A stretch of 64,000 nt of DNA. It comes from Escherichia phage 236Ecol005PP. The position numbers were made by a program, and so were the translations under genes. Shown one piece after another: positions 1,371 through 55,863 of this stretch (its first letter is position 1; every line of letters starts with the position of its first letter). The stretch lies in the sequence record PP434423.1; one strand, given 5' to 3'. The notes below the pieces were generated by a model, which saw only the letters and a program-made list of their open reading frames with translations, did no database searches and was not told the origin of the DNA.

Positions 1371-2386
1371 TGTGTTGCCTCTACATATAGCTGATTTGCA
1401 TATTGAATAAGTGCTTCGCGGTCAGAATCAGTGATGTCTGGAATTGCATTAATGTATTCTTCCATCAACGTCTGAAGAGATTGAACTTCAACTTCTTCAC
1501 TATCATCTGACTCGACAGAGTTATCAATCTTTGACACAACTCGTAATGAATGCACAACTTTTTCTAGTTCAGATTCGAACTTCGTTAGATTTTTGTCTAC
1601 TTCAGTTACTATAACACGTACTGATAGATTTGTAAAATCTTTATAGTCAATTTTTCCCTTAAATGGATATTGAATTCGACGATGCCAGGTAGTGTTGTTT
1701 GGAATAAATTCCATTCGTTCTGTTTCTGTATCAAACATCCAGAACCCGCGAGGGTCATTCTCGTCACCTGCAGTTAGTGTCCATGGTGTCCCAATATATC
1801 TGACGTTAGCAGCCTCAGAGATAGTATGGAAGTGACCAGACCACACCTCTTTATAAGTCTTAAGGAAATCAGGTTCAAGACCGTGAGATTTCATTCCTTT
1901 ATAAAAATAAAATCCATTCAGCTCCCAGTGACCAACACAAAAAGAAGCAGATGAAGTTTTGATGTGTTCAAGAATTTCACCAGTATTTTCTTCGCACATC
2001 CAAGGAATTAAATCAATCAAACATCCGTCAAAATCTACTGTAGTAGGCTTATCATATACTTTAACATTAGGATATTTAGCCAAAAGCTCAGTAGAAGCAT
2101 TTGGATGCATTACATTTTTATAGTGGAGATCGTGATTTCCTACAATAGTATGTAATGTGATTCCAGCGGCATCAAGCATTTGAACTATTTCACGAGCAAA
2201 CTCCATAGTTTTATGCGTGATCGCTTTTCGTACATCAAAAATATCACCGTATTGAATCCATGTAGTAATTCCATTTTTCTTAGAATATTCTATCGCTTGT
2301 TTAATTCCATCAATTTGAATACCGCGAATCCATTCATCATCAGCTTTAACGCCTAAATGCCAATCACCCAAGTTTAGTATTTTCAT
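1367..2386 (-). CDS. 47: Recombination nuclease subunit gp47 (Mre11/SbcD-like phosphoesterase)
   Basis: 339 aa; N-terminal LNLGDWHLG phosphoesterase motif I, GNHD motif; paired with Rad50-like gp46 downstream. Confidence 0.9.
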   Translation of the reverse strand: MKILNLGDWHLGVKADDEWIRGIQIDGIKQAIEYSKKNGITTWIQYGDIFDVRKAITHKTMEFAREIVQMLDAAGITLHTIVGNHDLHYKNVMHPNASTELLAKYPNVKVYDKPTTVDFDGCLIDLIPWMCEENTGEILEHIKTSSASFCVGHWELNGFYFYKGMKSHGLEPDFLKTYKEVWSGHFHTISEAANVRYIGTPWTLTAGDENDPRGFWMFDTETERMEFIPNNTTWHRRIQYPFKGKIDYKDFTNLSVRVIVTEVDKNLTKFESELEKVVHSLRVVSKIDNSVESDDSEEVEVQSLQTLMEEYINAIPDITDSDREALIQYANQLYVEATQ

Positions 2387-2987
2387 GGTGTCTTTTCCAT
2401 CCTAATTTAGCTGCTTTTGAAACTAGTTCTTTAATTTTTCCTTTTGTCCATTCAGGACCAGGAGGTTCATGACATAACATTTGCTTAACTCCGTTATTAT
2501 ACCATTTTTTACCTTTATTATGTGATGAAGCTTTAAATTTATTTGACCTTCCTTTTACATAACCTTCTGGAATATACGGTAAAAAGGCAGATTTTCCTGT
2601 TAATGGGTCATGTGAATGTATGTTTCCTTTACAATTATGAGAACCATATAATGGATGATTTTGTCCTTTAATATCTCTTCCAAATGAACCTTTTGGAGCA
2701 GCATATGACATATTAAAGAATAATGGATTTTTAACCGCATTATGCAAACGTTGATAATATAGCTCGCATTTAATAGCTTCTTCGCGCGTATCAAATTCAT
2801 CTAAAATGCATGAATCAAATAAATGTGGGTTATTTGAAAGTTCTTCATTATAAATTTTCTTATACTTTTTAGATAAAACTGATCCATGATAGCCGGCTAA
2901 ATGCCTATCTAAAGATGTAGATCCAATATAAAAAGGAGGAAGTTTATCTCCACTATATATTGTTAAATAAGTTATATATTTTTTCAT
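2364..2987 (-). CDS. putative GIY-YIG homing endonuclease (Seg-like)
   Basis: 207 aa; N-terminal TIY-x9-YIG (LTIYSGDKLPPFYIGSTS), downstream conserved R/E/N positions, basic C-terminal half; 3' end overlaps gene 47 start by 23 nt. Confidence 0.55.
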   Translation of the reverse strand: MKKYITYLTIYSGDKLPPFYIGSTSLDRHLAGYHGSVLSKKYKKIYNEELSNNPHLFDSCILDEFDTREEAIKCELYYQRLHNAVKNPLFFNMSYAAPKGSFGRDIKGQNHPLYGSHNCKGNIHSHDPLTGKSAFLPYIPEGYVKGRSNKFKASSHNKGKKWYNNGVKQMLCHEPPGPEWTKGKIKELVSKAAKLGWKRHHENTKLG

Positions 2988-3163: not shown

Positions 3164-4366
3164 TTATTTTGTAATAATGTCAAACTGTTCTTTAAAGCAG
3201 AAGCTTGAATCTTGGTGCTGATACAAAAATTCATAAGCTTTTTCACGTTCACGGTCATAAAGAGCTCGGTCAGATGACAGTTCTTTAATACGTTCGAGTG
3301 TCGATTCCATGTCATTTTCATCAAACCAAATGATACCGCTATCATGCGAGGTCAAAGGAGTATTATCAACACGGAATTTCAAATTATCACCCGTTGATTT
3401 CCAGAAAACAGGAATTGTACCACAAGCACCTAATTCAAGATGAGTATATTCGAGTGAGCGTTGTAAGTATTTCTGGTTAAGTTTACTCAACTGATATCCA
3501 AAGCCAGATTTACTCATTCGTTCAAGCATTTCACTATTAATATAACAATCTAGGATTTGTGCCGGTTGATTCGGCGCGAGATTCATTTTATCAATCTCAC
3601 GATTACCGTAATATTCATGCGGAATACCTTTTTCCTTAATTGCAATAAAAGCAGGGGAACGTTCAAGACCTTCCATTACAGTGGATTTACCAGCAGGTTT
3701 TAAGAATTTTTCATGAAAATCAAACATCTGATAAAAACCTTTCCATGTAGTCGTACGACCAATCCAACGGTTGATGTTCATGTTAATTTCAGAAACATCT
3801 TTCCAATAAGTTGACCGAACCTTCGCAATATCCATAGGAGGCTGAAAATTATATACTGTTGGTGCTTCTTCAATATCATCAAACAGAGAAACAGTTTCTG
3901 GATACCATTCTTTCATCAGAACTTTATTAAAATCACCATTATCAGAATGGCTAAAAATAACATCAGCTCGACGAACAGTTTCTTCTAATCCCAAATTTCG
4001 ACGCAAAGAAAGCACAGAATGATCATGCTGATAAACTACAACACGAATAGAAGGTTTAATATTATCTAAGAGTTTTTTATAGTTATTAATCGTAGCTTCT
4101 TGAACGGAAGTAGCAGGAACAGAATTAATAATTAGAATATCACAATCATTAATCAATTTAAGTGCTTTATCGTATTCTTTAGCTAAAATAACTGGAATTG
4201 AAAATGATTTGTGGTCATGAGAACTTGTACGAGTAAATGATTTATCTTTAGCATAAACCAGAGTTACTTCATGACCATTTTTAATGAACCAATCACGTTG
4301 CTCAAGAGAAAATTTAGTTACGCCGCAACCTTCAAGACCCCGAGCCATAAAAATGCATACTTTCAT
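3164..4366 (-). CDS. a-gt: DNA alpha-glucosyltransferase (HMC-DNA glucosylation)
   Basis: 400 aa, N-terminus MKVCIFMARGLEGCGVTKFSLEQRDWF matches my recollection of T4 a-gt; T4-like position between 47 and 55. Confidence 0.85.
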   Translation of the reverse strand: MKVCIFMARGLEGCGVTKFSLEQRDWFIKNGHEVTLVYAKDKSFTRTSSHDHKSFSIPVILAKEYDKALKLINDCDILIINSVPATSVQEATINNYKKLLDNIKPSIRVVVYQHDHSVLSLRRNLGLEETVRRADVIFSHSDNGDFNKVLMKEWYPETVSLFDDIEEAPTVYNFQPPMDIAKVRSTYWKDVSEINMNINRWIGRTTTWKGFYQMFDFHEKFLKPAGKSTVMEGLERSPAFIAIKEKGIPHEYYGNREIDKMNLAPNQPAQILDCYINSEMLERMSKSGFGYQLSKLNQKYLQRSLEYTHLELGACGTIPVFWKSTGDNLKFRVDNTPLTSHDSGIIWFDENDMESTLERIKELSSDRALYDREREKAYEFLYQHQDSSFCFKEQFDIITK

Positions 4367-8701: not shown

Positions 8702-9172
8702 TTAATCATGTTTCCACACCCCATCGGTATTTGACCAAAGTCGCTGATTATCTGAACCTCGCCACAGCTTTTTGGTCGGAAGATTTTTCTCATACTTCCC
8801 ATCAATAATAACATCAACATATTTAAGCATTTCTAGTTGTTTAATATCTTCAAACTTATATCCTGTCCACAACCAAATGCTTTTATTCGGATAAAGATTT
8901 TTTACTGTTTGAACAATGCAATGAACAACATCTCGGTTATCAGGATAAAGAGGGTCACCTCCAGTTATAGTTAATCCTTCTATATAATCATTATTCAAAC
9001 ATTCAATTAATTGTTCTAGTGTTTCACCAGTGAATGGAACGCCATTTCTAGCATTCCAAGTACTACGATTATAACAACCTTCACATTTATGCAAACAACC
9101 TGTAACGAAAAGAACGACCCTGCATCCAGGGCCATTCACAAAATCGCAAGGATAAAATCTATCATAATTCAT
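8702..9172 (-). CDS. nrdG: Anaerobic ribonucleotide reductase activating protein (radical SAM)
   Basis: 156 aa; CxxxCxxC radical-SAM cluster motif (GCLHKCEGCYN); directly downstream of nrdD with 4-nt overlap. Confidence 0.9.
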   Translation of the reverse strand: MNYDRFYPCDFVNGPGCRVVLFVTGCLHKCEGCYNRSTWNARNGVPFTGETLEQLIECLNNDYIEGLTITGGDPLYPDNRDVVHCIVQTVKNLYPNKSIWLWTGYKFEDIKQLEMLKYVDVIIDGKYEKNLPTKKLWRGSDNQRLWSNTDGVWKHD

Positions 9173-10460
9173 TGGTGTTTAACCCTATGCATGATTTCTT
9201 TATTTTTGCCGAGATTAAATCCACGTTCGTTCGGATTTCCCAAATAACCACAAGTTCTTCTTATTGTGTTCATCTTTTTAGGATCAGTTTCTCCACAAAT
9301 AGAACAAACAAATCCGTTTTCAGTAGGAGTCATTTCATGAGTGCTTCCACACGTAAAACATTTATCTACTGGCATGTTAACACCAAAATAATCTAAATGT
9401 TGTGCAGCATAATCCCATACAGCCTCAAGACCTTTTAGGTTATTTTTCATATCAGGAAGTTCAACATAAGAAATGTGACCGCCTGTTGCAATGAAATGAT
9501 ACGGGGCTTCGCGAGAAATCTTTTCAAACGGAGTAATATTTTCTTCTACTGAAACGTGGAAACTGTTAGTGTACCAGCCTTTATCAGTAACATCCTTTAC
9601 ACTTCCATATTTTTCTGTATCAAGTTTACAGAAGCGATAGCAAAGGTTTTCAGCAGGAGTAGAATACAAGCTAAAAGCAAAACCGGTTCTTTCAGTCCAC
9701 TGCTTAAGACGAGCATTCATTTTAGTTAAAATTTCCTGTCCAATATCACGACCGACAAGAATATTCAATTCGTGAATACCAATGTATCCTAGGGACACTG
9801 AACTTCTACCGTTTTTAAATAACTCAATTATGTCGTCATCAGGTTTAAGACGAACCCCGAATGCACCTTCTTGGTAAAGAATAGGAGCAACAGTCGCTTT
9901 AACTCCTTTTAAGGAACTAATTCTACACATCAATGCTTCAAAACACAAATCCATTCGTTCATTGAACAATTCGGCAAATTTCTGTTCATTGAACTGTGTT
10001 CCAATATAAGAATCTAATGCAATACGAGGAAGATTCAGTGTTACAACACCAAGATTATTACGTCCATCAAGAATTTCATTACCAGTCGAATCTTTCCATA
10101 CGCCCAAGAAACTACGGCAACCCATTGGAGAAACAGGAATAGATGAACCAGTGATAGCTTTATTGTTCTTAGCTGAAATAATATCAGGATACATTCTTTT
10201 ACTTGCACACTCTAGAGCAAGCTGCTTAATATCATAGTTCGGATCGTCTTTATAAAGATTAACACCTTCTTCAACGAACATAACAAGTTTAGGGAAAATA
10301 GGAGTTATCCCATCACGACCAAGACCTTTAATACGATTTTTCAGAATTGCTTTCTGAATCATTCGTTCAGTCCAGTCAGTTCCCGTACCAAATGTAATTG
10401 TTACAAAAGGCGTTTGTCCGTTAGAGCTGAAAAGTGTATTTACTTCATCATTATATTCAG
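9169..10460 (-). CDS. nrdD: Anaerobic ribonucleotide reductase NrdD, exon 2 (C-terminal part incl. Zn-ribbon CxxC...CxxC)
   Basis: Frame continuous with exon 1 after removal of ~1 kb intron; ORF-track start at 10500 is a TTG inside intron; splice junction placed by U.G/terminal-G rule, +/- a few nt. Confidence 0.8.
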
Positions 10461-10474
10461 CATGAGTCGCAAAT

Positions 10475-10867
10475 TCATGCCCGTTTATATGAAACAACAA
10501 AATTTGGATAGTCCATAGATATGCAACGTTCTTTTATAGTGCTAGGATGAAAATTTAGCGCTTTAGCTGCTTCTATATAAGACGTATACTTAATACCGTC
10601 AACAACCACATATTCAGGAACTTTATGAATAGTAGCCTTAATACTCAAAACAAGAGGATGAGTTTCGACTTCACTTTCAGTGCAATTTAAATATTCCGCT
10701 GCTTTTTTAAAACTTCTAAAAGTTTTATTTTTAAGCTTTATCGATACTTGTTTTTTACTTTTTCGACTATTGATATTATTTTGCACATGTTCCTTAGATC
10801 TTCCGTTTTTAGCATAATATTCAGCTACAGAAGATTTTATATTGTTTTTATGAGATTCGGATAACAC
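10475..10867 (-). CDS. intron ORF, C-terminal part of homing-endonuclease-like protein (DNA-binding tail)
   Basis: 130 aa (GTG start); C-terminal IKYTSYIEAAKALNFHPSTIKERC helix-turn-helix-like motif typical of intron endonucleases; different frame from upstream ORF. Confidence 0.45.
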   Translation of the reverse strand: MLSESHKNNIKSSVAEYYAKNGRSKEHVQNNINSRKSKKQVSIKLKNKTFRSFKKAAEYLNCTESEVETHPLVLSIKATIHKVPEYVVVDGIKYTSYIEAAKALNFHPSTIKERCISMDYPNFVVSYKRA

Positions 10868-10874
10868 TTTACCC

Positions 10875-11246
10875 TTATGAGCATCTCTTAATTTTTGAAT
10901 ATGTTCCTTCAGTATCCGGATGCTTATAAAACTTTTTACCGCCTATGGATTTATTTAAACATTTTTTGCTATAAAAATATTTACGTATGACCTCTTCTTC
11001 ATGTTTTAATGCATCTTTATAACTATCAAATGTTTTTAAAATTATCCATTTAGTAGGTGTATCAGTTTTTAAGCGTTCATTTATATACTTAGATGACGTT
11101 GTGTAAGTTTTCCAGTTTGTGGGCTTGTTTTTAATTGTTCTAAATTTTTTATAACCGATATAAATGTCGCCATTAGAAAACTTAACTAAGTATGTAAATG
11201 CGTCTTTATCTTTTATTTTAGTACAACGTCTTTTTATCCATTTCAT
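10875..11246 (-). CDS. intron ORF, N-terminal part of homing-endonuclease-like protein (GIY-YIG-like)
   Basis: 123 aa; TYL-x8-YIG motif (FTYLVKFSNGDIYIGY); stops 8 nt before next ORF in another frame, suggesting a frameshifted single gene. Confidence 0.45.
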   Translation of the reverse strand: MKWIKRRCTKIKDKDAFTYLVKFSNGDIYIGYKKFRTIKNKPTNWKTYTTSSKYINERLKTDTPTKWIILKTFDSYKDALKHEEEVIRKYFYSKKCLNKSIGGKKFYKHPDTEGTYSKIKRCS

Positions 11247-11494
11247 TGTTTCACCTCGTATTCATAAGATAATCTTATTTATACAAGATGACTGCTGCAT
11301 GTCGCCATGCAGATTAGACTATATCTTCATCTTTCGATGCCGGCCGTTTCGAATAGCATTAGCTTCTATTCTACACCGCTACATTCATCACGGTTAGTCG
11401 TTAGGCATTTAGTTCAAAAGAACATTTAGCACGGGATTGTCTACTAGAGAGGTTCCCCGTTTAGACCGGTTTTACATGAGCCTGAATTAAATTA

Positions 11495-12032
11495 ACTCAT
11501 ACGCCTGGAATGCATCGTATACATCTTTTTCTGTTTTAGATTGGGCATAATTCAATGCATCTGCGATTTGCCATTTTTCCGCGTCCTCAATATGTTTCGC
11601 ATAGGTGCGTTTAACATAAGGAGAAAGTACTTTATCTACATTCGCAAAAGTCGTTCCGCCATATTGATGAGAAGCAACCTGTGCAGTAATTTGTGCCATA
11701 ATTGCAGTAGCAACGCCGATTGATTTAGGGGTTTCAATCTGTGCATTACCGAGCTTAAATCCGTTCTCAAGCATTCCTTTTAAATCTACTAAACAACAAT
11801 TAGTAAATGGAAGAGCAGGGGAATAATCAATATCGTGGAAATGGATAATTCCGCTTTCATGCGCTTTCATAATAAAAGACGGGACCATATTTTTGGCAAT
11901 GTGTTTAGACACAATACCAGCCATAAGGTCCCGTTGAGTTGGAAAAACACGAGAATCTTTATTAGCATTCTCGTTTAAAAGGTCTTTATTAGTTTTATGA
12001 ATCAATCCTTCAATTTCTTTTTCAATTGTCAT
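11495..12032 (-). CDS. nrdD: Anaerobic ribonucleotide reductase NrdD, exon 1
   Basis: 179 codons from ATG 12030-12032; in-frame stop 6 nt into intron. Confidence 0.8.
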
Positions 12033-19806: not shown

Positions 19807-19839
19807 AGTCTTGTAAACCACTAAAAGAAACTTCTTTCA
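19807..19839 (-). promoter_or_regulatory. T4-type early promoter
   Basis: minus GTTTACA / 17 nt / TACTATAC followed by conserved leader AACTATCAACTA. Confidence 0.5.
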
Positions 19840-20120
19840 CAATTTTTTCCACTGAACCATGCGCTTACCGCTTTCTTAGTCTTGGGAGCAGTGTTATCCA
19901 TAAACCATTCAAAGGCAGCCTTTTTATGATTCTGGAGGGCTTCTCGGGCTTTAATCTGCTCACGGTCTATTAACACTAACATATGAGCCTTTCTTGTCAC
20001 CATGGGCTTCTTATGATTTTTTGAATACTCCCAGTCATTTGTCCATCGCATTGTTGTTGCGAATTGAAATACAGCTTCTTTAATTTTAGTTTCGTAAATT
20101 TCACGAGCCTTTGAGTATAA
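19821..20120 (-). CDS. hypothetical protein
   Basis: ORF track 19821..20135, start trimmed to Met-6. Confidence 0.4.
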   Translation of the reverse strand, partial: LYSKAREIYETKIKEAVFQFATTMRWTNDWEYSKNHKKPMVTRKAHMLVLIDREQIKAREALQNHKKAAFEWFMDNTAPKTKKAVSAWFSGKNCERSFF

Positions 20121-20206
20121 CATCACTACCTCCATTCACCAGTTTAATTCTAGTCATCTTTTTGATGGCAGTCCATATAATCTATTTCTGAACTGCCTTT
20201 TTTGTC

Positions 20207-20926
20207 TTAGGATTCTTCTAAATGTCTTTTCTGAAAAGTTGATACCATACTACGATACGGTTCATTTGGATATCCGTGTTTTATAGCTTCCTTTGTAAAT
20301 TTTCTCCATCCATATTTAGTTTCTTTCCAAAGCTCGAATAATTCATCTTCATACTGCCATATAGTTAAATGAGAACGCTTTGCAGCTTTAATTCCATTAA
20401 TATGCTTTTCTTTTACTGCAGGATTGCTTAGTTTCTTTTTAATAATATTACTAACTTTTCTAACAAAAACTGGGTCCTTATATCGTTGCGAAGTTTTTAT
20501 TGAAGTGTTTAATTTAACTTCCGGCGTGGATGTAACCTCTTTCATCTTTTTCTTCATATGCTGTATATGATTAGGATTTTTCCATAAATTTATAGAATGC
20601 TTTTTGCATTTTATCCTAGTTTCATCTGCAACCTTTCCTCCTTCACCCCCGTATGACAGGTTAACACAGTTTTTTCCATATTTCAATTTACCTGCCATGA
20701 TATATAATATTTCAGCTTGTACCATTTTATCATAATTATCAAAAACTTCTAAAACCGTTTTTGATAATATGTGGTCATTTGACACTTTTACACGTTCTAT
20801 ATAATTTCCACTACCAACATACGAATCATTGATGTTATTAGTTATATGTCGACCATAATAGTATTTCTTAATACCTGTCTTTAAATTTAATATTTCAGTT
20901 TTATAGATAGTAAAATATTTTTTCAT
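20207..20926 (-). CDS. putative GIY-YIG homing endonuclease (at the slot T4 uses for mobD)
   Basis: 239 aa; N-terminal TIYK-x12-YYYG, YGKNCVN, Lys-rich C-terminal half. Confidence 0.5.
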   Translation of the reverse strand: MKKYFTIYKTEILNLKTGIKKYYYGRHITNNINDSYVGSGNYIERVKVSNDHILSKTVLEVFDNYDKMVQAEILYIMAGKLKYGKNCVNLSYGGEGGKVADETRIKCKKHSINLWKNPNHIQHMKKKMKEVTSTPEVKLNTSIKTSQRYKDPVFVRKVSNIIKKKLSNPAVKEKHINGIKAAKRSHLTIWQYEDELFELWKETKYGWRKFTKEAIKHGYPNEPYRSMVSTFQKRHLEES

Positions 20927-21891
20927 TTTAATAATACCGTTTCAGCAATTTCTTCCCAACCGTTTTTGTCGGTCATAATAAAGTCAGCAAGATAAAGAGC
21001 AGTACGCAGTGAAACATTGCGTAAACGATTAACATTGACTTTCATCCATGATAATGCTTTATAAGTTTCTTCATCAGAAAGACCGCGCTTTTGCATCATG
21101 TCGGTTGAAAGAATAACATCTTCAACCCTGACCATAATTTCTTCATTAGTGTGAACACCCAAATCCAAATAAACTGAGCGGGACACTAATGCTTGTAAGT
21201 GTGGGGCAAGTTTAGTACCACGGTCTAATTCGCGGTCAATGTCAACGTTTGTGATAAAAACAATCGTTCCTTTAAATTCAAACTCACGGTCAATGCCTTT
21301 TTCTTCTAAGTAAGAAGATGCAGTGCTCCAGCAGACTTTACGGGTCTCTCCAGTGTCCAGAGCAGCTTTTAGAAGATTAAGAATGTCCATATCAGAGAAA
21401 ACATCCACATCATCAATCAAAAGGACAGAATTCTCTTCACGATTATTCCAAAGCTGCTCATAAAGACCAATACCAGAGATTTTACCATTAATGCTTTTAT
21501 ATTCAATGTATCCAATATCATTTGCTTTATTTAAAGCTTTATCTAAAGAATACGTTTTACCAATACCTGCTGCGCCAGAGATAATTAATGAACGAATATT
21601 TCCATTAATAATACCATTCGTCATCATTCCCATAACATTAAATCTTTTATTAATGCGGGTTTTCATATCTTCATATGATTCTTTAACTTCTTCAACTTTT
21701 ACACCATCATATGAAATATCTGATTTGTAAACCCAAACACCGCGACGTTTACCGTCAATTTCAACAAAAACTTTACCATCTCCTTGTGCATCTACCGGAG
21801 CATTATCTGGGAACCATTCGCCTAAGAGCTCAAAAGTTCCAGAGATTTCTTTACCGAAGTAGATACCCTTATTGATAGTTACAGTTTTCAT
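20923..21891 (-). CDS. AAA+/P-loop ATPase
   Basis: 322 aa from ATG 21889-21891 (GGAG SD); Walker A LIISGAAGIGKTYSL, Walker B SVLLIDDVD, sensor-like FITN. Confidence 0.6.
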   Translation of the reverse strand: MKTVTINKGIYFGKEISGTFELLGEWFPDNAPVDAQGDGKVFVEIDGKRRGVWVYKSDISYDGVKVEEVKESYEDMKTRINKRFNVMGMMTNGIINGNIRSLIISGAAGIGKTYSLDKALNKANDIGYIEYKSINGKISGIGLYEQLWNNREENSVLLIDDVDVFSDMDILNLLKAALDTGETRKVCWSTASSYLEEKGIDREFEFKGTIVFITNVDIDRELDRGTKLAPHLQALVSRSVYLDLGVHTNEEIMVRVEDVILSTDMMQKRGLSDEETYKALSWMKVNVNRLRNVSLRTALYLADFIMTDKNGWEEIAETVLLK

Positions 21892-21923
21892 TTTATTCTC
21901 CAAATCCGTATCAGTTGATAGTT

Positions 21924-21955
21924 GTATAGTACCATAAAGCTTTATGCTTGTAAAC
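21924..21955 (-). promoter_or_regulatory. T4-type early promoter
   Basis: minus GTTTACA / 17 nt / TACTATAC, same leader as 19807 promoter. Confidence 0.5.
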
Positions 21956-21987
21956 CGTTTTGTGAAAAAATTTTTGAAATAAAAAAA

Positions 21988-22005
21988 GGGAGCCCGAAGG
22001 CTCCC
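21988..22005 (-). terminator. tetraloop hairpin 3' of nucleotidyltransferase gene
   Basis: GGGAGCC-UUCG-GGCUCCC on minus strand, 3 nt after stop. Confidence 0.4.
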
Positions 22006-22007
22006 TA

Positions 22008-23021
22008 TCATTTATAATAACTTCGGTGGTTTTCAAGATAAACCCTCTCAAGGAAGTCATCCCAGAAACCCATGTCTACTTTTTGCTGCATACCGTTCTT
22101 AGAAGCTTCAATGGATGCTGCTTCTACTTGATCGACCACATCTTCCAAAAACTCTTGAACAGTTTTAAATGGGTGTTTACCCAGCTTCACGTCGAGAATA
22201 AATGGAGCGTCTTGAAGTGGATAGACTAAGTCACCAGTTTTGTAAATTTCCAATAGTTGGAGTCCACCACGACAAGCATGACTCAGAGCTTTCCAATCAA
22301 TGCCTTCATTAGCTTCAGCTTTACGAGCACGTTCACCATATTCAGCATCAAGTTTATTCAAAGACTGCTTAAGCTCAATAAGAGAAAGTGTTGTCTGATA
22401 TTTACGACCCAACACAGTGTAGAACGTTTGTGGGCCTGTTTTCTCATGATTATGGAATACCCATTCACAGAATTCGTTTTCTGGAAGACGGTGTTTAATA
22501 TCTTCAACTTTAGTGCGACGTTGTCCTTGTGTTCCATCTTCTCGGTAATCAACCCACTGGTCAGGGATTTGATTAACTACTTTCAATACATCACGTAATG
22601 CGGCCAAACGAGAACCCTTGACACCGTATTTAGAAGCTTGCTTGCGAACATATCCTAAATAGGATTTCATGTTAGTCGTATAAAAACGAGAACGATTGTC
22701 TTGAATAAACTTCCATACATCAGGCAAATCAGATTTAACTACCAGTTCAGGTGGAGTGTGGAGCATATCCAATGCTACAGTTTCACCATCTGCTGCTAAT
22801 TTAAAGAAATACTTAAGACTGTATAGTTCATGGTCAATATCATCTTTAGTGTTTTTAGATGATGTGTTATTAGTGTTTTTACTCATATGCTCTTTAACAT
22901 TTCCGATAAGAATATCGCGAGCAGGAGGAACAAAGATTTCTTTAAAATCTACATCAGATTCTGGAGTAGAAGTTCCATAAAGATGACTACCAAAATAGCT
23001 TTTCATTACTGTTTTCATCAT
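22008..23021 (-). CDS. Pol-beta-superfamily nucleotidyltransferase-fold protein
   Basis: 337 aa; N-terminal FGSHLYGTSTPESDVDF = hG[GS]-x10-DxD signature. Confidence 0.6.
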   Translation of the reverse strand: MMKTVMKSYFGSHLYGTSTPESDVDFKEIFVPPARDILIGNVKEHMSKNTNNTSSKNTKDDIDHELYSLKYFFKLAADGETVALDMLHTPPELVVKSDLPDVWKFIQDNRSRFYTTNMKSYLGYVRKQASKYGVKGSRLAALRDVLKVVNQIPDQWVDYREDGTQGQRRTKVEDIKHRLPENEFCEWVFHNHEKTGPQTFYTVLGRKYQTTLSLIELKQSLNKLDAEYGERARKAEANEGIDWKALSHACRGGLQLLEIYKTGDLVYPLQDAPFILDVKLGKHPFKTVQEFLEDVVDQVEAASIEASKNGMQQKVDMGFWDDFLERVYLENHRSYYK

Positions 23022-23479
23022 TCAGCCTTATATTCAATAACAGGACATACTTTAGCTTTACGCGCTTTTAAAAATTCGACGATAATAGATTTCTTGGGTT
23101 GAATAGGAGGTAAACCTTTATACGCCCTATCAATATTTTCTACATGTAAAGCATAATCCTTTTTCCATTTATAATCTTTATATTTTTCATGCAATTGTGC
23201 AGGAATAACAAATGAACCAATAATAAGTAAAACAAGCAAAATAGCAAGTATAAATGCTGATGGAATAAGAGTCCATAAACTACCAAAAATAAGCCATTTC
23301 TGTATGATTTCTGCACAGATGATAGTTAGACCTGCGAGTATAGTACATCCGAAAAAAGAAACGAAAAATGTAGGAATGACAATAGACCAAAAGTATGCAC
23401 ATAGTGTCTTAGGTCGTTTCCATTCATCATTAAACATTTTGAATAATTTATAGTGCCAAGAGCTTTCATTAATAATCAT
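23018..23479 (-). CDS. polytopic membrane protein
   Basis: 153 aa; three to four hydrophobic helices. Confidence 0.5.
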   Translation of the reverse strand: MIINESSWHYKLFKMFNDEWKRPKTLCAYFWSIVIPTFFVSFFGCTILAGLTIICAEIIQKWLIFGSLWTLIPSAFILAILLVLLIIGSFVIPAQLHEKYKDYKWKKDYALHVENIDRAYKGLPPIQPKKSIIVEFLKARKAKVCPVIEYKAE

Positions 23480-37785: not shown

Positions 37786-37862
37786 TTGGCCAGGGTGAAA
37801 GGATTCTAACCTTTAACCTGCGGTTTAGAGGACCGCTACTCTATACAATTGAGTTACACCCC
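37786..37862 (-). tRNA. tRNA-Arg (anticodon UCU), CCA encoded
   Basis: manual cloverleaf: acceptor CGGGGUG/CACCCUG, D ACUC/GAGU, anticodon stem GCGGU/ACCGC loop CCUCUAA, T-arm AAAGG-UUAGAAU-CCUUU. Confidence 0.75.
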
Positions 37863-37987
37863 GTAATTAGTTCACAGCAATACCTACTCCAACAATCAAG
37901 ATGTCTTCACACGAAATTAAGAGAAGAGTGATCAGTTCAACCACTATAATCGCGTCAAGTAGATATTAATGTGACAACTGTCACAAG

Positions 37988-38062
37988 TTTGGCGGACATG
38001 CATGGATTCGAACCATGGACCAATTGATTAACAGTCAACTGCTCTACCACTGAGCTACACAT
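37988..38062 (-). tRNA. tRNA-Asn (anticodon GUU), CCA encoded
   Basis: manual cloverleaf: acceptor GGAUGUG/CAUGUCC, D GCUC-AGUGGUA-GAGC, anticodon loop CUGUUAA, T-arm CAUGG-UUCGAAU-CCAUG. Confidence 0.75.
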
Positions 38063-38066
38063 CCAA

Positions 38067-38153
38067 ATTGGTGGGGAGTGATGGAGTCGAACCACCCGAG
38101 TCGCAATGACAATGGATTTACAGTCCACACCGCTACCTCTACGGGATAACTCC
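38067..38153 (-). tRNA. tRNA-Tyr (anticodon GUA), type II long variable arm, CCA encoded
   Basis: acceptor GGGGAGU/ACUCCCC, anticodon stem GUGGA/UCCAU loop CUGUAAA, variable arm, T-loop UUCGACU. Confidence 0.7.
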
Positions 38154-38165
38154 CCTAATTCGTAA

Positions 38166-38240
38166 TTTGGTGGCCCTGGGTGGAATTGAACCACCATCTG
38201 GCGATTATGAGTCGCTTGCTTGAACCTTCCAGCTACAGGG
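38166..38240 (-). tRNA. tRNA with CAU anticodon (Ile-lysidine type as in T4, or Met)
   Basis: acceptor GGCCCUG/CAGGGCC, anticodon loop CUCAUAA, T-arm GGUGG-UUCAAUU-CCACC. Confidence 0.7.
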
Positions 38241-38241
38241 C

Positions 38242-38317
38242 CTTGGTGCTGATTGACGGAATCGAACCGCCGACCTTCTCATTACAAGTGAGTTGCTCTA
38301 CCTACTGAGCTAAATCA
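38242..38317 (-). tRNA. tRNA-Thr (anticodon UGU)
   Basis: acceptor GCUGAUU/AAUCAGC, D GCUC-AGUAGGUA-GAGC, anticodon loop CUUGUAA, T-loop UUCGAUU; 1 nt from CAU tRNA (dimer). Confidence 0.75.
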
Positions 38318-38323
38318 GCAAAA

Positions 38324-38413
38324 ACTGGCGGAGGCGATAGGATTTGAACCTATGAGTCGCCGGAGCGACTGCCGGTTTTCAAGACCGGTGCATTAAACCA
38401 CTCTGCCACGCCT
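38324..38413 (-). tRNA. tRNA-Ser (anticodon UGA), type II
   Basis: acceptor GGAGGCG/CGCCUCC, anticodon stem CCGGU/ACCGG loop CUUGAAA, long variable arm, T-loop UUCAAAU. Confidence 0.75.
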
Positions 38414-38416
38414 CCA

Positions 38417-38489
38417 GTCTCCGCGGCAGGATTTGAACCTGCGACATTCTGCTCCCAAAGCAGACGCTCTACCAAACTGAGCTACACGG
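38417..38489 (-). tRNA. tRNA-Pro (anticodon UGG), CCA not encoded
   Basis: acceptor CUCCGUG/CGCGGAG, D GCUC-AGUUUGGUA-GAGC, anticodon loop UUUGGGA, T-loop UUCAAAU; 3 nt upstream of tRNA-Ser (dimer). Confidence 0.7.
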
Positions 38490-38499
38490 AGTAAATTAA

Positions 38500-38573
<74 letters not shown>

Positions 38574-38579
38574 GCAAAC

Positions 38580-38666
38580 TTTGGTACGAGAAGTGGGACT
38601 CGAACCCACAAGGAAATCATTCCGCAGCATTTTAAGTGCTGTGCCTTTACCAATTTGACCATTCTC
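38580..38666 (-). tRNA. tRNA-Leu (anticodon UAA), type II
   Basis: acceptor GCGAGAA/UUCUCGU, anticodon stem CAGCA/UGCUG loop CUUAAAA, long variable arm, T-arm GUGGG-UUCGAGU-CCCAC. Confidence 0.75.
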
Positions 38667-38667
38667 G

Positions 38668-38740
38668 CGCTGGGAATAAAGGACTCGAACCTTTGCATCT
38701 AGCAGTCAAAGTGCTATGCCTTATCAACTTGGCTAATTCC
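38668..38740 (-). tRNA. tRNA-Gln (anticodon UUG), CCA not encoded
   Basis: acceptor UGGGAAU/AUUCCCA, anticodon stem UAGCA/UGCUA loop CUUUGAC, T-arm AAAGG-UUCGAGU-CCUUU; 1 nt upstream of tRNA-Leu (dimer). Confidence 0.7.
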
Positions 38741-38839
38741 CAATTATTAACAAAGGCTCTCAAGCAAGAACCCTTGATGATAGAGGGTATTAATCAGTGC
38801 GATATGAGTTAATAATAACAAATAATTCTTAAAGCATAT

Positions 38840-54055: not shown

Positions 54056-55863
54056 TGAAACAAAATATTAATATCGGTAATGTTGTTGATGATGGTACCG
54101 GTGACTACCTGCGTAAAGGTGGTATAAAAATAAATGAAAACTTTGATGAGCTTTATTATGAGCTCGGTGATGGAGATGTTCCATATTCAGCCGGTGCCTG
54201 GAAAACTTATGATGCTTCATCTGGCCAAACACTAAAAGCTGAGTGGGGAAAATCATACGCTATTAATACCTCTTCTGGAAGAGTAACTATAAATCTTCCA
54301 AAAGGAACTGTCAATGATTACAACAAGGTAATTAGAGCTAGAGACGTATTTGCTACATGGAACGTCAACCCAGTTACATTAGTAGCTGCTTCCGGCGATA
54401 CGATTAAAGGGTCTGCAGTACCAGTTGAAATTAATGTTCAATTCAGCGATTTGGAATTAGTGTATTGCGCCCCAGGACGTTGGGAATATGTCAAAAATAA
54501 GCAAATTGACAAAATTACCAGTTCAGACATTAGTAATGTAGCTCGTAAAGAATTTTTAGTCGAAGTCCAAGGACAAACAGACTTTTTAGATGTTTTCCGT
54601 GGAACTAGTTATAATGTAAATAACATCAGAGTAAAACATCGTGGTAACGAATTGTACTACGGCGATGTATTTAGTGAAAACAGCGATTTTGGCTCTCCGG
54701 GCGAAAACGAAGGTGAATTAGTTCCTCTTGATGGATTTAATATTCGATTAAGACAGCCTTGTAATATTGGTGATACTGTTCAAATTGAAACATTTATGGA
54801 TGGCGTATCACAGTGGAGAAGTTCATATACAAGACGTCAAATTAGAGTGTTAGATTCAAAATTAACGTCAAAAACTTCTTTAGAAGGAAGCATTTACGTT
54901 ACTGATTTATCAACAATGAAATCAATTCCGTTTTCAGCTTTTGGATTAATTCCAGGTGAACCTATTAATCCTAATTCTCTCGAGGTCCGTTTTAATGGAA
55001 TTTTACAAGAATTGGCTGGAACAGTTGGAATGCCATTATTTCATTGCGTTGGTGCCGATTCAGACGATGAAGTAGAATGCTCTGTTTTAGGTGGAACTTG
55101 GGAACAGTCTCATACCGACTATTCAGTTGAAACTGATGAAAACGGCATACCAGAAACATTGCACTTCGATAGAGTATTTGAGCACGGCGACATTATTAAT
55201 ATCACTTGGTTTAATAATGATTTAGGTACATTATTAACAAAAGATGAGATTATTGATGAAACTGATAATCTCTATGTATCGCAAGGACCAGGAGTAGATA
55301 TTTCCGGTGATGTAAATTTAACAGACTTCGATAAAATTGGTTGGCCAAATGTAGAAGCAGTTCAATCCTATCAACGTGAATTTAATGCTGTTTCAAATAT
55401 CTTTGATACGATTTATCCTATTGGAACTATATATGAAAACGCTGTTAATCCAAATAACCCTGTTACATATATGGGATTCGGCTCATGGAAATTATTTGGG
55501 CAAGGAAAAGTTTTAGTTGGATGGAATGAAGATATTTCGGACCCTAACTTTGCTTTAAATAACAACGATTTAGATTCGGGCGGAAATCCTTCACATACTG
55601 CAGGCGGAACAGGTGGTTCTACTTCTGTTACATTGGAAAATGCTAATCTTCCTGCAACTGAGACAGATGAAGAAGTTCTAATAGTTGATGAAAATGGATC
55701 AGTCATTGTTGGTGGATGTCAATACGATCCAGATGAATCTGGTCCAGTTTACACGAAATACCGTGAAGCTAAAGCATCTACTAACTCTACTCACACTCCG
55801 CCAACATCAATAACTAACATTCAACCATATATTACAGTTTATCGTTGGATAAGGATTGCATAA
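54055..55863 (+). CDS. 10: Baseplate wedge protein gp10
   Basis: 602 aa, T4 length/order. Confidence 0.9.

What the first reader, a model, noticed from the sequence alone, without database searches (positions are those of the whole stretch)
20207..20926. Second free-standing GIY-YIG-like endonuclease gene
The 239-aa ORF has TIYK-x12-YYYG, a YGKNCVN element and a Lys-rich tail. It sits downstream of the ATPase/nucleotidyltransferase pair, at the slot T4 uses for mobD, which I recall as HNH-type. A different endonuclease family at the same slot would be an example of endonuclease gene replacement.
Basis: partly seen in the sequence, partly recalled or inferred. Interest (0 to 1): 0.4.

Follow-up and report, generated by a model that had tools for sequence, protein, structure and literature searches.

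The report
Seg-type homing endonuclease after nrdC.10
This is an ordinary, already-annotated selfish "homing endonuclease" gene of T4-like phages (GIY-YIG/Seg type) sitting just after the phage gene nrdC.10, not in the slot where T4 keeps mobD, so it is not a case of one endonuclease replacing another.

Summary
The window is a Tequatrovirus, about 97% identical to RB32, T6 and AR1. The ORF is the orthologue (99% aa) of RB32ORF093c, annotated [quoted passage not shown].

The synteny claim is wrong. T4 mobD lies upstream of nrdC.11. This gene lies between nrdC.10 and nrdC.9, where T4 has only a short spacer. At least 14 phage records carry both mobD and this gene.

Additional findings:
- The gene is a presence/absence cassette, found in about 66 of roughly 500 Tequatrovirus records.
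- It has exact boundaries, an ATGA overlap with nrdC.10, and brings a recoded last six codons of nrdC.10.
- Diverged relatives (44-47% aa) occupy the same slot in three other lineages.
- The likely homing site is therefore the 3' end of nrdC.10. This is inferred, not shown.
- Its C-terminal region is homologous to that of HNH-type MobD.

Verdict: known kind, low interest.

The parts
20207..20926 (-). Free-standing Seg-type GIY-YIG homing endonuclease gene (239 aa); orthologue of RB32ORF093c and T6 KMB99_gp092
20636..20926 (-). GIY-YIG catalytic domain (residues about 1-97): Y8, Y23-x-G25, H27, D34, Y36-x-G38-S39-G40, E72, N89, G93-G94
20378..20626 (-). Lys-rich linker of five short helices (residues about 101-183), four of which read as ~17-residue NUMOD3-like repeats (NPNHIQH.., TPEVKLN.., DPVFVRK.., NPAVKEKH..); presumed DNA-binding 'beads on a string'
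   Evidence: Model helices H101-116, 118-132, 135-150, 152-166 and 169-182. 33 of 93 homologues hit Pfam NUMOD3, but the window protein itself does not. 23% Lys. Aligns to the T4 MobD repeats.
20219..20371 (-). C-terminal ~50-aa helical module (W-x-Y-x-E-L-x-x-L-W ... F ... G-Y-P-x-x-x-Y ... F), shared with HNH-type MobD and present 1-3 times in other Seg-like proteins; no Pfam model
20923..20943 (-). Recoded last six codons plus stop of nrdC.10 (GAA ACG GTA TTA TTA AAA TGA = ETVLLK*) that travels with the cassette. The stop overlaps the endonuclease start (ATGA). Probable self-immunity patch and site of the homing target in genomes lacking the gene.
   Evidence: Genomes without the gene have GAG GTT ACT CTT CTG AAA TAA (EVTLLK*). 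There is no other fixed difference in about 1 kb on either side. The same patch and ATGA overlap occur in the diverged metagenomic lineage L015.
20923..21891 (-). nrdC.10 (AAA-type ATPase, 322 aa from MKTVTINKG); host gene whose 3' end abuts the cassette
   Evidence: RB32 annotation. PHROG 1250 and weak AAA Pfam hits.
22008..23021 (-). nrdC.11 nucleotidyltransferase (RlaP family)
   Evidence: Pfam PF10127 at 3.6e-11 and PHROG 388.
21987..22006 (-). Intrinsic-terminator-like hairpin after nrdC.11
   Evidence: A terminator is annotated at the equivalent place in phage G28.
21926..21954 (-). Sigma-70-like promoter (TTTACA-17-TACTAT with TG) in front of nrdC.10; probable source of the transcript that carries the promoterless endonuclease gene
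   Evidence: Consensus scan only. No late-promoter TATAAATA within about 5 kb of the gene.
19821..20135 (-). nrdC.9 (DUF7203), the downstream neighbour
   Evidence: Pfam PF23833 at 3.3e-15. RB32 annotation.
23018..23479 (-). 153-aa ORF with long hydrophobic stretches (RB32 orthologue RB32ORF096c; T6 orthologue annotated 'membrane protein') occupying the true mobD slot in this phage
   Evidence: RB32 note 'replaces mobD'. T6 annotation. T4 mobD position.

Best explanation
The ORF is a free-standing Seg-family GIY-YIG homing endonuclease gene. It is a promoterless cassette inserted immediately after the stop codon of nrdC.10 in a T6/RB32-like Tequatrovirus.

Shown:
- The N-terminal ~97 residues have the GIY-YIG fold and every residue that is invariant in the SegB/SegC subfamily.
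- The rest of the protein is a lysine-rich string of short NUMOD3-like helices followed by a ~50-residue helical module, which is the usual modular DNA-binding tail of phage homing endonucleases.
- The gene is present or absent among otherwise ~97-99% identical phages, with identical boundaries.
- Its ATG overlaps the nrdC.10 stop codon (ATGA).
- The cassette replaces the last six codons of nrdC.10 with differently coded, nearly synonymous ones.

Inferred mechanism: the gene is transcribed with nrdC.10 and translated at a low level by coupling. In a mixed infection the enzyme binds and cuts the 3' end of nrdC.10, or the adjacent spacer, in a co-infecting phage that lacks the gene. By analogy with SegB and I-TevI this would be a double-strand break with 2-nt 3' overhangs. 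Repair from the gene-carrying genome then copies in the cassette and its recoded patch. The recoded patch and the insertion itself make the carrier immune.
For: Identity: 97% DNA identity to RB32, T6 and AR1 across the region. 99% aa identity to RB32ORF093c, annotated 'similar to seg'.

Fold and family:
- BLASTP to T4 SegB 9e-13.
- An HMM of 93 homologues scores SegB 5e-59, SegC 1e-45 and I-TevII 5e-16.
- 43 of 93 homologues hit Pfam SegE_GIY-YIG, 30 hit GIY-YIG and 33 hit NUMOD3.
- The profile hits the I-TevI catalytic domain 1LN0 with motifs in register.
- BFVD returns Seg-like endonucleases.

Mobility:
- About 66 records carry the gene at >=95% identity, against about 495 with near-identical flanks.
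- Boundaries are identical in 6 carrier and 5 non-carrier genomes, the nrdC.10 end is recoded, and there is no other fixed flank difference.
- Decayed copies exist in RB3 (frameshift), AR1 (truncated) and P0004, as expected for a homing-endonuclease life cycle.
- Relatives at 44-47% aa identity sit directly 3' of nrdC.10 orthologues (74-79% identical) in Jiaodavirus and in two metagenomic lineages. All keep the catalytic residues.
- In Jiaodavirus, 7 records carry the gene and about 136 lack it. In the near-isogenic pair AM_K5/AM_K2 the only differences near the junction are the cassette and the last codons of nrdC.10; otherwise there is one mismatch downstream and a few at the end of the alignment.

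Characterised paralogue: SegB makes 2-nt 3' overhang breaks and homes with 94% inheritance (PMC2330249).
Against: No biochemical or genetic test of this protein was found in the literature searched.

The protein itself does not reach any Pfam or NCBIfam GIY-YIG model. Foldseek against PDB found nothing.

The canonical GIY-YIG arginine (R27 of I-TevI) has no invariant counterpart in this Seg subfamily, although active SegB shares that trait.

The target site is inferred only from sequence comparison. The recoded patch could simply be donor sequence co-converted with the cassette, with the real cleavage site elsewhere. Free-standing endonucleases often cut hundreds of bases away.

No own promoter, clear Shine-Dalgarno sequence or regulatory hairpin was found, so expression is assumed rather than shown.
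Confidence: 0.75

Rival explanations
1. One reading: a GIY-YIG gene has replaced the HNH gene mobD at the same genomic slot (endonuclease gene replacement).
For: T4 mobD is HNH-type (PMC2988022 Table 1). This window lacks mobD. The two proteins share a homologous C-terminal region.
Against: mobD lies upstream of nrdC.11. This gene lies downstream of nrdC.10, about 2 kb away. The mobD slot here holds a different 153-aa ORF. At least 14 records carry both genes, and both single-gene arrangements were seen as well.
Confidence: 0.02
2. The gene is intact but no longer homes. [quoted passage not shown]
For: The title of Sokolov et al. [quoted passage not shown] The abstract of PMC13096335 reports SegB promoting amplification of anti-defence loci in T6. 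The gene has no promoter or strong ribosome-binding site of its own. It is retained at only about 13% frequency in Tequatrovirus and about 5% in Jiaodavirus.
Against: The sharp presence/absence pattern with identical junctions, the near-isogenic AM_K5/AM_K2 pair, fidelity to one insertion site across four diverged lineages, and conservation of all catalytic residues at 44-47% overall identity are what active homing predicts. Frameshifted and truncated copies show there is no strong host-level selection to keep it.
Confidence: 0.2
3. It is an HNH-type or other non-GIY-YIG protein, or has no nuclease domain, and the quoted motifs are chance resemblances.
For: No direct Pfam or NCBIfam GIY-YIG hit for the protein itself. 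Foldseek against PDB was negative. The C-terminal half resembles HNH-type MobD.
Against: The similarity to MobD covers only residues 133-231, not the MobD HNH region (residues about 28-50). The N-terminus aligns to SegB, SegC and I-TevII. The model's best structural matches are GIY-YIG nucleases.
Confidence: 0.03

Closest known systems
RB32ORF093c / T6 KMB99_gp092 (UniProt A0A346FJH7) / RB14, RB33, RB68 orthologues: 'putative site-specific intron-like DNA endonuclease, similar to seg'
   Same: Same gene: 98.7-99.6% aa identity, same position between nrdC.10 and nrdC.9, same length.
   Different: Nothing substantive. AR1 and RB68 label it 'segE', which is a misnomer: T4 segE lies between inh and uvsW (PMC2988022 Table 1).
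T4 SegB (characterised GIY-YIG homing endonuclease in the tRNA cluster)
   Same: Same GIY-YIG subfamily signature (Y...YxGxH-T...D-Y-GSG...E...N-L-x-x-GG). It has NUMOD3-type repeats after the catalytic domain and is a free-standing gene (PMC2330249).
   Different: Only about 27% identity over 171 residues. The insertion site and target differ. The spacer between the GIY and YIG tyrosines is 14 residues here, against 10 in SegB and I-TevI. SegB lacks the C-terminal W..LW..GYP module.
I-TevI (intron-encoded GIY-YIG endonuclease; structures 1LN0/1MK0)
   Different: 18% identity. Not intron-encoded. No zinc finger. The loop and helix carrying I-TevI R27 are replaced by the H27...D34-Y36-G38-S39-G40 segment.
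T4 MobD (HNH-type free-standing endonuclease, nrdC.11/mobD.1 slot)
   Same: Homologous C-terminal ~100 residues: P-x-V-K-E-K-H-type repeats plus the terminal W..LW..GYP..Y module (BLASTP 9e-07, HMM 1e-16). Located in the same 4-kb neighbourhood.
   Different: Different catalytic domain (HNH versus GIY-YIG), different insertion site, and independent presence/absence.
SegH/Hef versus mobC/mobE (Sandegren et al. 2005, known cases of endonuclease gene replacement)
   Same: Free-standing endonuclease genes that vary between T-even phages.
   Different: In those cases a different endonuclease occupies the same slot. Here the slot is distinct from mobD's and both genes can be present together. The comparison rests on the paper's title as cited in PMC10055350; the paper itself was not read.

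Membership tests
GIY-YIG nuclease superfamily | 'GIY' motif tyrosine in strand beta-1 | tested here: met
   T6-I7-Y8. Tyr in 89 of 91 homologues that have a residue at this column. Aligns to I-TevI Y6.
GIY-YIG nuclease superfamily | 'YIG' motif (Tyr-x-Gly) in strand beta-2, about 10-11 residues after GIY | tested here: met
   Y23-Y24-G25. Y23 in 91/93 and G25 in 92/93. The spacer is 14 residues, longer than the canonical 10-11, because of two 2-residue insertions that a minority of homologues share.
GIY-YIG nuclease superfamily | Conserved catalytic arginine after YIG (R27 in I-TevI) | tested here: inconclusive
   No invariant Arg in this subfamily. H27 is present in 90/93. Basic residues are common but not fixed at positions 44, 45, 48 and 49. 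The protein has R26 and R45. Active SegB shares this pattern (PMC2330249). Model coordinates could not be superposed residue by residue with the tools available.
GIY-YIG nuclease superfamily | Metal-binding glutamate (E75 in I-TevI) | tested here: met
   E72 is invariant in 93/93 and aligns with I-TevI E75.
GIY-YIG nuclease superfamily | Conserved asparagine (N90 in I-TevI) | tested here: met
   N89 is invariant in 93/93 and aligns with I-TevI N90.
GIY-YIG nuclease superfamily | beta-beta-alpha-beta-alpha core fold | tested here: met
GIY-YIG nuclease superfamily | Match to curated family models (Pfam PF01541 / PF19835) | tested here: not met
   The protein itself gives no hit at E<=1 in Pfam and none at E<=10 in NCBIfam. 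Membership is reached only transitively: 43 and 30 of its 93 homologues match PF19835 and PF01541 respectively.
Seg-type free-standing homing endonucleases of T4-like phages | Gene lies between, not within, conserved phage genes and is not in an intron | tested here: met
   Between nrdC.10 and nrdC.9. No Rfam family anywhere near it.
Seg-type free-standing homing endonucleases of T4-like phages | Presence/absence polymorphism among close relatives, with defined junctions | tested here: met
   for Tequatrovirus. for Jiaodavirus.
Seg-type free-standing homing endonucleases of T4-like phages | Site-specific cleavage of the allele lacking the gene, and super-Mendelian inheritance in mixed infection | not testable with these tools
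   Needs enzyme assays and phage crosses. Only indirect support is available: the recoded nrdC.10 end and site fidelity across four lineages.
HNH (Mob-type) homing endonucleases | HNH / beta-beta-alpha-metal catalytic motif | tested here: not met
   No HNH hit. The similarity to MobD is confined to the non-catalytic C-terminal region, residues 133-231. MobD's own HNH motif is at residues 28-50.

The most novel reading that the evidence does not exclude
This endonuclease belongs to a clade that is faithful to one site, the last codons of nrdC.10. It has kept that association across at least four diverged Tevenvirinae lineages. It carries its own recoded copy of the nrdC.10 3' end as a built-in immunity patch. 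Its DNA-recognition tail uses an undescribed ~50-residue module (W..LW..GYP..Y; no Pfam model) that has been exchanged between GIY-YIG (Seg) and HNH (MobD/MobE-like) endonucleases. That would give a natural example of one DNA-binding module serving two nuclease chemistries.
Probability: 0.45. Interest if true: 0.35.

Novelty: already known. Interest (0 to 1): 0.18.

Why it matters
It matters little in itself. The gene is a routine, already-annotated member of the large repertoire of selfish endonuclease genes in T-even phages. The useful outcomes are three:
- A corrected map. The gene is not in the mobD slot and nothing was replaced.
- A concrete, testable prediction of the homing site: the last ~20 nt of nrdC.10 plus the following spacer in genomes lacking the gene.
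- The note that a still-unmodelled C-terminal module is shared between Seg-type and Mob-type enzymes. This may interest people who engineer modular GIY-YIG nucleases or build domain databases.

Tried and rejected
1. Mutual exclusivity of mobD and this gene, which would have suggested competing endonucleases with a shared DNA-binding tail and the same target. I searched with a synthetic 'both present' haplotype. Fourteen records cover it at 100%, so this is rejected.

2. Direct family assignment of the single sequence. Pfam (E<=1) and NCBIfam (E<=10) gave no GIY-YIG hit. phmmer against PDB gave only a spurious hit.

3. Single-sequence AlphaFold gave pLDDT 39.6 and was unusable. Using the 93-sequence alignment fixed this.

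5. The word-indexed homologue search returned only 2 proteins. The exhaustive HMMER search returned 1410.

6. I looked for a promoter or regulatory hairpin belonging to the gene. There is no T4 late promoter TATAAATA within about 5 kb, sigma-70-like matches are only generic, and there is no significant RNA structure over the start codon (z=-1.5). The 9-bp hairpin downstream (z=-3.3) lies in spacer sequence that genomes lacking the gene also have, so it is not part of the cassette.

7. I looked for fixed protective polymorphisms in the flanks, the usual signature of a distant cleavage site. None exists within about 1 kb apart from the recoded patch.

8. Literature searches for nrdC.9, nrdC.10 and ORF093c found no characterisation of this gene.

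9. The Rfam scan found no intron or other RNA family near the gene.

Full report
**Observation.** The ORF listing gives an ATG-initiated 239-aa ORF at 20207..20926 on the minus strand. It is embedded in an uninterrupted run of minus-strand genes. The quoted elements are present: TIYK at residue 6, YYYG at residue 22 (twelve residues between them) and YGKNCVN at residue 83. The 'Lys-rich tail' is really a Lys-rich middle: residues 98-185 are 23% K, whereas the last 54 residues are 11% K.

**What the window is.** A 4.1-kb stretch around the ORF is 97-98% identical to many Tequatrovirus genomes, including SH-1, RB32, T6, AR1 and RB14. In RB32 the orthologous ORF (99.2% aa) is RB32ORF093c, annotated 'putative site-specific intron-like DNA endonuclease; similar to seg'. 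T6 calls it 'DNA endonuclease'. AR1 and RB68 call it 'segE', which is a mislabel because T4 segE sits between inh and uvsW (PMC2988022, Table 1). The gene is therefore already in public annotation. I found no paper that characterises it.

**Is it GIY-YIG?**

Direct scans were negative:
- Pfam at E<=1 and NCBIfam at E<=10 gave no nuclease hit.
- phmmer against PDB gave nothing meaningful.
- PHROGs gave phrog_314 'homing endonuclease' at 2.6e-30.

An exhaustive HMMER search found 1410 homologues at E<=1e-3. I aligned the window protein with 92 of the best (alignment A2, 93 sequences):
- Of the 93 sequences, 43 match Pfam SegE_GIY-YIG (PF19835), 30 match GIY-YIG (PF01541) and 33 match NUMOD3.
- The profile built from them scores T4 SegB at 5e-59, SegC at 1e-45 and I-TevII at 5e-16.
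- Pairwise BLASTP of the window protein to SegB gives 9e-13.
- The same profile aligns residues 6-87 to the I-TevI catalytic domain 1LN0 (E=0.026). The IY, YxG, E and N positions are in register.
- Columns Y36, G38, E72 and N89 are invariant. Y8, Y23, G25, H27, D34, S39, G40, G93 and G94 are >=90% conserved. The window protein has all of them.

Structure prediction agrees:
- A single-sequence AlphaFold model was useless (pLDDT 39.6).
- With the alignment the model reached pLDDT 95.1.
- Foldseek against PDB found nothing.
- BFVD returned the T6 orthologue and dozens of Seg-like endonucleases.

The one canonical feature I could not place is the catalytic arginine. This Seg subfamily has H27 nearly invariant and no invariant Arg. 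Experimentally active SegB shares that pattern (PMC2330249).

**Synteny.** Transcription runs from high to low coordinates.
- In T4 the order is mobD.1 - mobD - nrdC.11 - nrdC.10 - nrdC.9. PMC2988022 Table 1 gives the mobD insertion site as 'nrdC.11/mobD.1'.
- In the window the order is RB32ORF097c-like - a 153-aa ORF (23018-23479, whose RB32 orthologue is annotated 'replaces mobD') - nrdC.11 (22008-23021) - nrdC.10 (20923-21891) - this gene - nrdC.9 (19821-20135).
- The gene therefore occupies the nrdC.10/nrdC.9 junction, where T4 has only a short spacer.

To test whether the two endonuclease genes nevertheless exclude each other, I searched with a synthetic haplotype carrying both. Fourteen records match it end to end: RB3, RB5, RB6, RB7, RB9, RB10, Lv5cm, pSe_SNUABM_01, FL08, FL12, F25 and PTE-Eco15. 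Both single-gene arrangements were also seen. These are independent insertions, not a replacement.

**Anatomy of the insertion.** I aligned six carrier genomes (the window, RB32, Lv5cm, RB3, AR1, T6) with five non-carriers (T4, Pu-Krd-SF6, G28, KFS-EC3, CM8).
- All carriers share identical junctions.
- Non-carriers end nrdC.10 with GAG GTT ACT CTT CTG AAA TAA (..EIAEVTLLK*), followed by about 17 nt of spacer.
- Carriers end it with GAA ACG GTA TTA TTA AAA TGA (..EIAETVLLK*). The TGA overlaps the endonuclease ATG (ATGA).
- Homology resumes at the endonuclease stop codon (..CTAAGACAAAAAGGCAG).
- Nine of these 21 nucleotides differ while the peptide is almost unchanged, in flanks that are otherwise 97-99% identical.
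- No other fixed carrier/non-carrier difference exists within about 1 kb on either side.
- T4 itself has two 1-nt indels in this same short stretch, giving ..TGYSSEINS*.

Decayed copies exist: RB3 is split into 160- and 97-aa ORFs, AR1 is truncated to 166 aa, and a 104-aa frameshifted version exists in metagenomes (P0004). About 66 phage records carry the gene at >=95% identity, against about 495 with near-identical flanks.

**Same slot in other lineages.**
- The nearest non-Tequatrovirus homologue (46.6% aa) is in Klebsiella Jiaodavirus AM_K5. It lies 8 nt after the nrdC.10 orthologue, which is 74% identical to the window's.
- In Jiaodavirus, 7 records have the gene and about 136 lack it.
- AM_K5 and AM_K2 have nearly identical flanks (one search gives 99.9% identity). 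Near the junction they differ only by the cassette and by the last codons of nrdC.10: ACA ATG CTG AAA TAA versus ACC CAA CTC CGT GGA TAA.
- Two metagenomic lineages (L015, L017) again have a 44% identical homologue directly 3' of nrdC.10.
- In L015 the gene caller missed the true start. The full 240-aa ORF overlaps nrdC.10 by ATGA and is preceded by the same ETVLLK patch (GAA ACG GTT TTA TTA AAA TGA) as in the window.
- The four endonuclease lineages are 44-65% identical to each other. Their nrdC.10 hosts are 74-79% identical. All four keep the catalytic residues.

**Mechanism.** What is shown is the fold, the conserved residues, the cassette structure, the site fidelity and the decay products. 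What is inferred is that the enzyme recognises the conserved 3' end of nrdC.10 and the adjacent spacer in genomes lacking the gene, makes a double-strand break, and is copied in by recombinational repair together with its recoded patch. The patch and the insertion would destroy the site in carriers. The characterised paralogue SegB makes 2-nt 3' overhang breaks and is inherited by 94% of progeny (PMC2330249).

Expression is probably from the nrdC.10 transcript:
- A terminator-like hairpin follows nrdC.11 (22006-21987).
- A sigma-70-like promoter precedes nrdC.10 (21954-21926).
- No late promoter is nearby.
- No ribosome-binding-site hairpin is evident.
- The ATGA overlap suggests translational coupling.

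Promoterless cassettes are common among T4 seg and mob genes (PMC2988022).

The main caveat is that the recoded patch may be co-converted donor sequence, with the true cut site elsewhere. The main rival reading is an intact but non-homing or co-opted nuclease, as reported for SegD and, recently, for SegB.

**C-terminal half.**
- The model shows five short helices between residues 101 and 182, then four more to residue 238.
- Residues 133-231 align to the C-terminal part of HNH-type T4 MobD (BLASTP 9e-07; profile 1e-16). The alignment covers the P-x-V-K-E-K-H repeats and a terminal ~50-residue module (W.Y.EL..LW....F...A...GYP..Y..MV..F).
- That module has no Pfam model.
- It occurs one to three times in other Seg-like proteins.
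- It is found by tblastn in genes annotated mobD, 'HNH endonuclease' and mobE in other T4-like phages.
- Sharing of NUMOD-type modules between endonuclease families is an established idea (PMC2988022; PMC2330249). This is therefore an instance of a known principle, although this particular module seems undescribed.

**Verdict.** The family assignment is correct and the synteny interpretation is refuted. The feature is an already-annotated, uncharacterised Seg-type homing endonuclease gene. Interest is low. The modest new points are the predicted target and immunity patch at the end of nrdC.10, the fidelity to that slot across four lineages, and the tail module shared with MobD.

Noticed in passing
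window 10475-11246 (-), inside nrdD (exons about 11487-12032 and 9169-10500): nrdD is interrupted by about 1 kb that carries an I-TevII-like gene. It is only 54% aa identical to T4 I-TevII and is split by a frameshift into a GIY-YIG ORF (10875-11246) and a NUMOD1/HTH ORF (10475-10867). A late-promoter TATAAATA lies just upstream at 11276-11283. Rfam did not call a group I intron at the gathering threshold.
   Followed up: partly
window 2364-2987 (-): Another free-standing GIY-YIG-like ORF (207 aa; Pfam GIY-YIG E=3e-4, just under the cut-off) lies between gene 47 (1367-2386) and alpha-glucosyltransferase (3164-4366).
   Followed up: partly
window 23018-23479 (-): A 153-aa ORF with long hydrophobic stretches occupies the place where T4 has mobD. 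The RB32 annotation of its orthologue says 'replaces mobD' and the T6 orthologue is annotated 'membrane protein'. Function unknown.
   Followed up: no
L002 10330-10385 (T4 NC_000866, about 54330-54385): T4's own nrdC.10 3' end differs from other genomes lacking the endonuclease gene by two 1-nt indels within the ~30-nt putative target, which changes the C-terminus to TGYSSEINS*. It could be a resistance allele or a repair scar.
   Followed up: no
window 37790-38742 (-): Ten tRNA genes lie in one tight cluster with no gap large enough for a segB-like gene, unlike T4, where segB sits between tRNA-Arg and tRNA-Ile.
   Followed up: no
window 20147-20200 (-): A conserved 9-bp-stem hairpin (GGCAGUUCA...UGGACUGCC; z=-3.3) and a sigma-70-like promoter (TGGACT-17-TAGAAT) lie in the spacer upstream of nrdC.9. 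Genomes with and without the endonuclease gene both have them.
   Followed up: partly
L011 2664-3073 (Shigella phage CM8) and window 21892-22007: The nrdC.11-nrdC.10 spacer is another variable spot. CM8 has two extra small ORFs there (a DUF4031 protein and a 49-aa ORF), and sequence variation peaks at window 21900-22000.
   Followed up: no
L015 2872-3594: The metagenome gene call P0002 (197 aa) starts at an internal Met. The real ORF is 240 aa and includes the GIY-YIG domain, so the database entry is N-terminally truncated by annotation, not by biology.
   Followed up: yes
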